From positions 124,001-188,000 of the forward strand of contig NW_026852234.1 in the NCBI RefSeq assembly GCF_026571515.1: DNA of 64,000 nucleotides, in the 5' to 3' direction. Below are positions 45,885 to 47,291 of the stretch, piece by piece. The translations under genes and the position numbers were made by a program. The first letter of the stretch is position 1. Each line of letters begins with the position of its first letter. The DNA comes from Ruditapes philippinarum (lineage: Eukaryota). Below the pieces are notes generated by a model. That model was not told the origin of the DNA and made no database searches. It saw only the letters and a list, made by a program, of their open reading frames with translations.

Positions 45885-47291
45885 ATGGAGCTACGCAGTG
45901 GTCTTTTGTTTTTAACAGGTTTCGTGCTAGTTTATGGGTCGGTTAGTATTTCCAGTTTTATTTATTCCAACATATTCTCATTGCATTTATAGACGCTGGA
46001 TTTTAAAATTCTTTACTGATTGGTTATTTACGTCTATGATAAATTAATGCATGATTGTATAAGTTTTAAACCATGAAAGCATCATTTGTATATGTATGCA
46101 TCTTTTGGGCAAAAAAATTTGCTTGATGCATCATTTAAAGTGCAGTATACAATGACATGTTTTAAACTATTATGCCAATAGACAATATAAAACTTATACT
46201 ATATGTTTATGCATTTGTTGCTCATTTTACTTGTAACTAAACATACTCGACTTAATCAGCTAGCCCAACAGAAAAAAAACTCACATGCCTCTTATGATCT
46301 TTATTCCCAGACGGTTAAGCCAAATGCGAGTAACAACGTCACCGCAGCCGTGACAGTGACACTAACAACCCCGCTGACTTCCGCCAGTCAACTTGCTACG
46401 ATAAATGGCCAACTTGTAAGACTTATAGACAATTGCACCGTTGGAATCACATCTTCCTGTCCATATGCATATTGCTGCACAAAAAAGGTTGGTCTAAGTG
46501 TGTCACGCCCTAATTACAGACGTCATGTCATGTTTAGAACAGTGAACTTTCAGAGTACATATTAAGGGTCAATTTTGCAATACTCAGATGAATTTTAGTT
46601 CAATGATATATGTATCGATTGCTGAACTTCTTAGATCGAGTTCTTTGTCAAAAGTAATTACAAAATGTGAACGAATCACAACAGACTTGTACTTATCTCA
46701 TGTTGGCCTTGTGACAATCTACGTATTGACAACGCTGGCAGTGTGATATAAGTTGAATAACTGGAGTGAAACATGTTGGAGAAAGAAGTACAGAATAGAC
46801 TCGAACCGAATAAACATGATTTAGATAAACATTGACATAATTTAAGCAAGAATAGAAAACTGCTTGTTTTAAAGATAACCAAGGCATTTGTCAGCCCGTT
46901 TCACACACAAAAAATTCGTGTAATTAATTGCATACGATACAAAAAGACGTTTCTGCAAGCACTGTGATTTCTCGAAAACACTTAGAGAGTCCTTGTTTAA
47001 ACCTAATTACTGTTCTTTGACATCCTAAGGACTACGTCTTTTCTAACAGTTCATTTACCGCGTATTAATAATCTCAGAAAAAAATGTTTTAATCACCTTA
47101 ATGCAGGAATTTACTTTTCTTTTCAGTACATGACATACAGTTCTGACTACGTTGGTGATAGGCCAGTTTACCAGTTAGAATGCAAACCATTGAGAAGGAC
47201 GGGAGAATTCTGCTATTTCAACACCCCGGAACAATACTGCCCATGTGCAACTCGATGTCACACAAACGGCTTCTACGGCAGTTGTCTTTGA
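45885..47291 (+). CDS. Small secreted prokineticin/astakine-like (colipase-fold) 10-cysteine protein, 132 aa
   Basis: Exons 45885-45941 (MELRSGLLFLTGFVLVYGS signal peptide), 46311-46487, 47127-47291, all phase 0 GT-AG. Cys pattern C-x7-C-x4-CC-x21-C(KPLRRTGEF)C-x8-CPC-x3-C-x8-C matches prokineticin/astakine spacing. Confidence 0.8.

What the first reader, a model, noticed from the sequence alone, without database searches (positions are those of the whole stretch)
45885..47291. Hidden secreted prokineticin/astakine-like cytokine gene with a Thr-rich glycosylated stalk
Not recoverable from the ORF track: three phase-0 exons give a signal peptide, a Thr-rich region with N-glycosylation sequons (NAS, NVT, NCT), and a 10-Cys domain with the CxPLxxxGExC and CPC hallmarks of the prokineticin/AVIT/astakine colipase fold. 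It lacks the AVIT N-terminus needed for vertebrate PKR activation, as invertebrate astakines do, and has an unusually long loop (21 aa) after CC and a short CPC-x3-C. It may be a divergent haematopoietic cytokine or toxin-like protein, located ~6 kb from an immune lectin.
Basis: partly seen in the sequence, partly recalled or inferred. Interest (0 to 1): 0.7.

Follow-up and report, generated by a model that had tools for sequence, protein, structure and literature searches.

The report
Mollusc-wide long-finger colipase-fold protein
This is a real, spliced clam gene for a small, likely secreted ten-cysteine protein predicted to share the colipase/prokineticin fold; it belongs to an old mollusc-wide subfamily distinct from the blood-cell cytokine astakine and likely acts by binding a conserved, still unknown partner protein.

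Summary
The gene is real. Three phase-0 exons give a 132-aa protein identical to RefSeq XP_060599974.1 (Ruditapes philippinarum, 'uncharacterized'). Transcript contigs show both splice junctions, each in three studies. AlphaFold2 is confident over residues 45-132, and fold searches put Dkk1, Bv8, MIT1-like proteins and colipase on top, so the colipase fold is supported, though scores are modest and Pfam finds nothing.

It is not an astakine by the testable marks: it lacks AVIT, the arthropod G-x-M-R-Y-S loop and the spiralian G-K-R loop. It belongs to a subfamily seen in six mollusc classes, with spacing C-x7-C-x4-CC-x21-C-x9-C, a conserved Tyr/Pro/Gly finger and usually an added N-terminal beta-hairpin. 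Relatives already stand unlabelled in a 2019 catalogue. The Thr-rich 'stalk' is a variable linker. The nearby lectin is one of at least 151 matches and lies beyond another gene.

Best reading: a secreted, tissue-restricted ligand for a conserved unknown partner (0.4). Rivals: gut or mucus effector (0.35), astakine-equivalent (0.15). This scan earlier reported a different, oyster G-K-R type subfamily on other DNA, not this one.

The parts
45766..45884 (+). 5' untranslated part of exon 1 (minimum extent)
   Evidence: Contig of run X3 starts at 45766; contigs cannot show the true start
45885..45941 (+). Exon 1 coding part: predicted signal peptide, residues 1-19
   Evidence: hydrophobic core and small residues at -3/-1 read by eye (no SignalP run); paralogs also keep the signal peptide on its own phase-0 exon
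45942..46310 (+). Intron 1, GT..AG, phase 0
   Evidence: skipped in contigs of X3, X7, X12
46311..46487 (+). Exon 2, residues 20-78: Thr-rich linker, N-terminal beta-hairpin, Cys1-Cys4
46311..46388 (+). Thr/Ser-rich linker, residues 20-45, predicted disordered, with sequons at 24 and 28
   Evidence: pLDDT 45-57 over residues 1-40; not conserved in sequence; amino-acid-changing alleles at codons 36-37
46389..46424 (+). Predicted N-terminal beta-hairpin, residues 46-57, just before the place of AVITGA in prokineticins and overlapping it
   Evidence: Strands 46-50 and 53-57; same in the paralog model; VIA-align range 44-132 on Bv8 1-77
46488..47126 (+). Intron 2, GT..AG, phase 0, three codons after the CC pair
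   Evidence: skipped in X1, X2, X3, X12; same position in paralogs
47127..47291 (+). Exon 3, residues 79-132 and stop: rest of the 21-residue finger and Cys5-Cys10
47127..47180 (+). Main part of the conserved C4-C5 finger (residues 79-96; Tyr82 and Gly88 invariant)
   Evidence: Alignments A3, A4; strands 73-79 and 93-99 frame it
47292..47681 (+). 3' untranslated region; poly-A ends near 47377-47386 and contig ends near 47657-47681 behind an AATAAA at 47665

Best explanation
The gene encodes a 132-residue, ten-cysteine protein that is likely secreted, is predicted to take the colipase fold, and likely works as a local signal or modulator by binding a conserved, unknown molluscan partner through its 21-residue finger and N-terminal hairpin. 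Shown: the spliced transcript, the cysteine frame, the subfamily and its conservation, and patchy expression among libraries. Predicted: secretion, fold, hairpin and finger. Inferred: that the conserved surface binds a protein, and that the result is signalling. The partner would not be a prokineticin receptor, since AVIT is absent and papers report that protostomes lack that receptor. The Thr-rich linker is likely a dispensable spacer.
For: Spacing C-x7-C-x4-CC-x21-C-x9-C in 20 of 21 full-length relatives from bivalves, gastropods and cephalopods. Tyr82, Gly88, Pro117 and Gly129 are invariant besides cysteines in 16 aligned rows. Further members from scaphopods, a monoplacophoran and solenogastres stand in a paper's supplement. 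Of 11 listed allele sites in the folded part, 10 are silent and 1 is Arg to Lys; 3 of 5 in the linker change the residue. pLDDT is about 94 for residues 45-132. The top structural matches include receptor-binding ligands, Dkk1 and Bv8. No conserved dibasic site lies in the finger, so it is likely uncut. Domain pI is 5.7-8.1 in 10 members, not strongly cationic.
Against: No partner, tissue or activity is shown. A shared fold shows no function: the same fold serves as lipase cofactor, trypsin inhibitor (PMC9918498) and antibacterial peptide (PMC5614986). Contig depths of about 100-3,300 in five runs would suit an abundant effector better than a cytokine, though those runs were picked by this gene and contig depth is a poor measure. 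Structural scores are modest: no Foldseek match at E<=0.001, best Z 5.0 (rmsd 3.1, 64 aligned). The constant loop length is partly a result of searching with profiles that contain it; near-members in the supplement have 18-22 residues. The allele tables were cut (26 and 30 rows not shown).
Confidence: 0.4

Rival explanations
1. It is an abundant secreted effector of gut or mucus: a colipase-like lipase cofactor, a protease inhibitor, or a binder of microbes or carbohydrate.
For: High contig depth in some libraries and near silence in 3 of 3 raw-read libraries. All five oyster prokineticin-like transcripts are expressed in digestive gland (PMC8398477 passage; their subfamily was not seen). A spider gut protein of this fold inhibits trypsin (PMC9918498) and Hydra NDA-1 is antibacterial (PMC5614986). 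The window clade is rich in aromatic residues: 10-12 in 72, against 3-7 in seven other members. Atlas neighbours include mollusc clusters with 18-20% Colipase matches (under 0.9, a lead only).
Against: Colipase ranks below Dkk1 and Bv8 structurally (Z 3.0 and 4.4). The domain is not cationic. The conserved Lys/Arg of the finger is usually followed by Pro, a poor trypsin site (recalled). The tissue of the runs is not on record. PMC9918498 states that atracotoxin-type proteins do not act as colipases.
Confidence: 0.35
2. It is the clam's functional equivalent of astakine and drives haemocyte production.
For: Same cysteine frame and lack of AVIT; astakine activity is reported in crayfish, shrimp and oyster.
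Against: Astakine loop lengths and the G-x-M-R-Y-S motif are absent. No Pfam Prokineticin match for this protein; the best family member has E 0.6. No oyster member was named among the homologs found. I could not see the CgAstakine sequence, so its subfamily is open.
Confidence: 0.15
3. It is a single-domain Dickkopf-like Wnt antagonist that binds LRP5/6, as Hydra Dkk1/2/4 does with the colipase domain alone.
For: Dkk1 CRD2 is the best Foldseek match for both models (probability 0.98 and 1.00). Dkk2 is one of only two PDB sequence hits of profile A3 (E 0.64).
Against: Protostome Dkk has two cysteine-rich domains (PMC6425005); this has one. The Phe-Trp before Cys5 and the Arg before Cys7 of Dkk2 have no counterpart in the alignment (their role in LRP6 binding is recalled). 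Bv8 ties with Dkk1 in VIA-align.
Confidence: 0.07
4. It is a toxin-like protein.
For: RefSeq names two relatives 'venom protein 164-like'; MIT1 and a spider peptide are among the fold matches.
Against: The name is an automatic similarity label. The family is kept in low copy in filter feeders and grazers. The best MIT_LIKE_ACTX match is below its cut-off (E 0.0023).
Confidence: 0.03

Closest known systems
Molluscan prokineticin-like proteins catalogued by De Oliveira et al. 2019 (PMC6425005, supplementary file 3)
   Same: The file holds members of this very subfamily: the Patinopecten entry reads the same as P0015, and scaphopod, monoplacophoran, solenogastre and squid entries share the finger.
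   Different: In the parts I saw they carry no family label, and the main-text passages do not describe the subfamily, its finger or hairpin. No Ruditapes entry was seen. The window clade has CPC-x3-C instead of x5.
Arthropod astakines (Pacifastacus Ast1, Ast2a)
   Same: Signal peptide, ten cysteines, C-x4-CC, C-x9-C, CPC, no AVIT.
   Different: C4-C5 loop 11 residues with G-x-M-R-Y-S against 21 with Tyr/Pro/Gly; C6-C7 loop 15 or 28 against 8; no N-terminal hairpin segment.
Spiralian G-K-R type prokineticin-like proteins (brachiopod, phoronid, oyster)
   Same: Long C4-C5 loop of 17-21 residues.
   Different: Their loop holds a G-K-R motif; this subfamily has none, and has C1-x7-C2 instead of mostly x5.
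Vertebrate AVIT family (Bv8, MIT1, prokineticins)
   Same: Fold: Bv8 Z 5.0, rmsd 3.1, 64 aligned; Z 6.1, rmsd 3.3, 70 aligned for the paralog.
   Different: No AVITGA; that position is a hairpin strand and not a free N-terminus.
Dickkopf CRD2 and pancreatic colipase
   Same: Fold: Dkk1 Z 4.9, rmsd 2.8, 59 aligned; colipase Z 3.0, rmsd 3.3, 61 aligned.
   Different: No CRD1, no Dkk loop motifs, and no Pfam Colipase match above cut-off.

Membership tests
Colipase-fold superfamily | Ten cysteines in the order C, C, CC, C-x9-C, C-x-C, C, C | tested here: met
Colipase-fold superfamily | Predicted structure matches solved colipase-fold domains | tested here: met
   Top four VIA-align rows are all of this fold for both models. 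Foldseek probability 0.98 and 1.00, but E 0.13 and 0.0024. Scores are modest.
Colipase-fold superfamily | Disulfides C1-C4, C2-C5, C3-C7, C6-C9, C8-C10 (PMC9918498) | not testable with these tools
Prokineticin domain (Pfam PF06607) | Score above the gathering cut-off of 21.6 bits | tested here: not met
   No match for P0001 at E<=10; 7 of 21 relatives match weakly, best E 0.6
Vertebrate AVIT/prokineticin ligands | N-terminal AVITGA | tested here: not met
   feature from PMC8398477 passage
Arthropod astakines | 11-residue C4-C5 loop with G-x-M-R-Y-S (read from Ast1, Ast2a and a bee sequence; the formal signatures of Ericsson and Soderhall 2018 were not seen) | tested here: not met
Arthropod astakines | Stimulates haematopoiesis; binds ATP synthase beta subunit | not testable with these tools
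   Feature
Spiralian G-K-R type prokineticin-like proteins | G-K-R motif in the C4-C5 loop | tested here: not met
   Loops of 21 proteins printed lack it; comparison sequences
Dickkopf | Two cysteine-rich domains in protostomes | tested here: not met
   One domain only; feature. Hydra Dkk1/2/4 is a known one-domain exception.
Dickkopf | Binds LRP5/6 and blocks Wnt signalling | not tested
   No clam LRP5/6 protein was in hand
Colipase | Pfam PF01114/PF02740 above cut-off | tested here: not met
   None for P0001; 3 of 21 relatives match Colipase_C weakly, best E 0.017
Colipase | Anchors and activates a pancreatic-type lipase | not testable with these tools
   Needs a bench assay
Unnamed molluscan long-finger subfamily | C-x7-C-x4-CC-x21-C-x9-C with Tyr at loop position 7 and Gly at 13 | tested here: met

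The most novel reading that the evidence does not exclude
An unnamed ligand subfamily, as old as the molluscs, in which a beta-hairpin takes the place of the AVIT activation segment and an uncut 21-residue finger has been held nearly fixed across six classes because it docks on a conserved receptor. Its pull-down would give the first true receptor for a protostome prokineticin-like protein.
Probability: 0.25. Interest if true: 0.6.

Novelty: new variant of a known kind. Interest (0 to 1): 0.33.

Why it matters
Protostome prokineticin/astakine-like proteins have no known cognate receptor (PMC8557429 and PMC8398477 passages), and molluscan members are lumped under one name. This gene marks a separable, deeply conserved subfamily with a defined candidate binding surface, which makes receptor or partner searches and tissue mapping concrete. 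It also warns against reading 'astakine', 'cytokine' or 'venom protein' into such genes. The gene itself is already annotated and the fold is well known, so the surprise is limited.

Tried and rejected
Pfam scans of single exons and of the whole protein: no family. phmmer of P0001 against PDB sequences: 0 matches at E<=10; profiles gave only E 0.64-2.1. Atlas feature scores were all under 0.9, leads only. Own-genome search with PF06607 found nothing and its control rang nowhere, so it does not show that the clam lacks a canonical astakine; PF17556 gave one chance match with a stop. The own-genome search does not take alignments, so distant family members in this genome may be missed. Immune-cluster idea: rejected as weak. 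Fibrinogen_C has 151 matches among 150 scored of 746 candidates, a coiled-coil gene intervenes, and no match to the lectin or three other window proteins was found in 40 kb and 9 kb around the paralogs. By rough arithmetic a FReD within 6 kb of a random place is still under about 1%, so chance is not proved. Convertase processing of the long loop: rejected, no conserved dibasic site. Literature: the three LOC ids gave 0 papers; colipase + mollusc + digestive gland gave 0; some searches gave the papers cited; some searches were too loose to inform. PMC2937883 was not held. No complex was predicted, because no specific partner is claimed.

Full report
Observation. The three proposed exons are phase 0, bounded by GT..AG, and give a stop-free 132-residue frame with ten cysteines. 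A search with the exon 3 region returned a 132-aa protein at 100% identity, which is RefSeq XP_060599974.1, uncharacterized LOC132753506 of Ruditapes philippinarum. I laid 8 of 24 listed runs. The second junction is a joint in 4 of 5 contig runs from three studies, and the first in 3 of 5 from three studies, with an allele that changes codon 17. One 892-nt contig spans all three exons from 45766 to 47657. The three raw-read libraries, 1.1-1.9 billion letters read each, gave exon depth of 0-3 and no spliced joint, so expression differs strongly among libraries. Their tissues are not on record.

Anatomy. Exon 1 holds the predicted signal peptide (read by eye). Residues 20-48 have 7 Thr and 3 Ser and the first 40 residues are modelled at pLDDT 45-57. 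There is no membrane anchor, so this is a linker and not a stalk. Sequons at 24 and 28 are missing from the Mya and Dreissena orthologs; the one at 60 is kept in all three and in the three Ruditapes paralogs. From residue 45 on the model is confident (about 94): a hairpin at 46-57, a long hairpin 73-79/93-99 that carries the 21-residue loop, and short strands in the C-terminal half. The paralog P0022 gives the same elements.

Fold. Pfam finds nothing for the protein, and relatives match Prokineticin (7 of 21, best E 0.6), MIT_LIKE_ACTX (4 of 21) and Colipase_C (3 of 21) only below cut-off. Foldseek ranks Dkk1 CRD2 first (probability 0.98, E 0.13). For the paralog model the first six rows are Dkk1, MIT1, Dkk1, Dkk2, a spider peptide and colipase (best E 0.0024). 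VIA-align over 48,161 chains ranks Bv8, Dkk1, the spider peptide and colipase as the top four for both models (Z 5.0-3.0 and 6.1-4.2). These scores are modest, but agreement between methods and the cysteine frame support the colipase fold. They do not choose among prokineticin, Dkk and colipase. Disulfide pairing could not be read.

Family. The own genome holds paralogs on C6010 and C10853, the latter as three tandem copies of which one is broken in exon 3. They share both intron positions. Searches found relatives in Mya, Dreissena, Mercenaria, Mactra, four scallops, Gigantopelta, Patella, Haliotis, Octopus and Argonauta. I measured spacing in 21 of 35 stored proteins and left out 14 partial, intron-retaining, fused or duplicate records. 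All 21 have C-x7-C-x4-CC and C-x9-C; the C4-C5 loop is 21 residues in 20 and 20 in one; CPC-x3-C occurs in 3 and x5 in 18. The three x3 proteins (window, Mya, one Dreissena) form a clade at 100/100 in a 20-row tree whose deeper forks are largely open, so the window gene likely arose by a duplication before the Venerida/Myida split. The constancy of the loop is partly due to how relatives were found.

An independent check comes from supplementary file 3 of PMC6425005 (parts 54 and 66 and search passages; the file is cut). It holds the scallop protein P0015 and members from two scaphopods, two solenogastres and a monoplacophoran. Six of these have 21-residue loops by my count, and five near-members have 18-22. 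The subfamily thus occurs in six classes and likely dates to the molluscan ancestor. The parts I saw carry no labels; the main text says 35 monoplacophoran transcripts form four prokineticin-like groups.

Selection. Of 16 coding allele sites taken from the two cut tables, 11 lie in the folded part (10 silent, one Arg to Lys) and 5 in the linker (3 changing). This fits purifying selection on the domain and a free linker.

Not an astakine. Crayfish Ast1 and Ast2a, as printed in that supplement, have an 11-residue C4-C5 loop with G-x-M-R-Y-S and 15 or 28 residues between C6 and C7. Brachiopod and phoronid prokineticin-like proteins have 17-21 residue loops with G-K-R (PMC8557429 supplement part 24), as does an oyster entry. 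This protein has neither motif and no AVIT. A long loop is therefore not unique, but its content is specific to the subfamily. I could not see the CgAstakine sequence.

Surroundings. A single-exon fibrinogen-related gene lies at 38281-39585 on the minus strand (PF00147, E 2e-70), 6.3 kb away, with a coiled-coil gene and a GC-rich repeat-like insert between. The genome has at least 151 such matches, and none was found beside the paralogs. I give this neighbour little weight.

Mechanism. A surface held nearly fixed across the phylum, on a fold whose best-studied members bind receptors, most simply means a conserved protein partner; I put a local signalling or modulating role at 0.4. An abundant gut or mucus effector is close behind at 0.35: oyster prokineticin-like genes are digestive-gland expressed (PMC8398477 passages), a spider gut protein of this fold inhibits trypsin (PMC9918498 passages), Hydra NDA-1 kills bacteria (PMC5614986 passages), and the window clade is rich in aromatic residues. 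Astakine-equivalent 0.15, Dkk-like 0.07, toxin 0.03. Other papers were seen as passages only: PMC9756803, PMC9680113, PMC3303826, and PMC11521371 with supplement passages.

Verdict. A real, already annotated gene. What is new is the definition of an old molluscan subfamily with its own finger and hairpin, which I did not find described in the searches named under Tried and rejected. Interest 0.33.

Noticed in passing
P0005 (Mactra antiquata, 164 aa): This predicted protein has a window-type exon 2 followed by a paralog-type exon 2 and exon 3. It may be two tandem genes merged by gene prediction, which would hint that the two clades arose side by side.
   Followed up: partly
G000:C10853:125958-148332 (L016-L019): Three tandem paralog copies about 11 kb apart; the third is broken in exon 3 by a stop and frame disruption.
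   Followed up: partly
window 47377-47386 and 47657-47681: Two likely poly-A sites: poly-A loose ends in X12 at the first, contig ends behind an AATAAA at the second.
   Followed up: no
window about 46100-46471: Run X1 has a contig that joins 207 letters resembling the end of intron 1 to exon 2: retained intron, pre-mRNA or another 5' end of a divergent allele.
   Followed up: no
window 41359-44707 (+): Multi-exon gene for a coiled-coil protein between the lectin and this gene (likely exons near 41359-41476, 42710-42832, 44352-44707); only weak coiled-coil Pfam matches; low-depth contigs in X2 and X7.
   Followed up: partly
window 43230-44000: GC-rich insert in an intron of that gene with several overlapping open frames; looks like a repeat or transposon piece; no Pfam match for the 129-aa frame.
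   Followed up: no
window 38281-39585 (-): Intronless 434-aa frame with a hydrophobic N-terminal stretch, coiled coil and fibrinogen C domain (FReD), one of a very large family here.
   Followed up: partly
window 27054-28979 (+), 13996-18726 (+), 56071-61791 (-): Ankyrin-repeat frame with a SOCS-box-like end, WD40-like exons, and a 1009-aa low-complexity frame near zinc-finger-like exons; named by eye, not scanned.
   Followed up: no
window 45100-45260 and 47835-48000: Short interspersed repeats that draw many reads from elsewhere and inflate depth on both sides of the gene.
   Followed up: no
L020:5985-7665 (-): Mariner-like transposase pieces near the C6010 paralog, named by eye.
   Followed up: no
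PMC6425005 supplement file 3, solenogastre entries: Two members of the subfamily carry long Thr-rich tails at the C-terminus, so mucin-like segments have been attached at either end of the domain. Octopus and Argonauta members replace the N-terminal hairpin with an acidic stretch.
   Followed up: no
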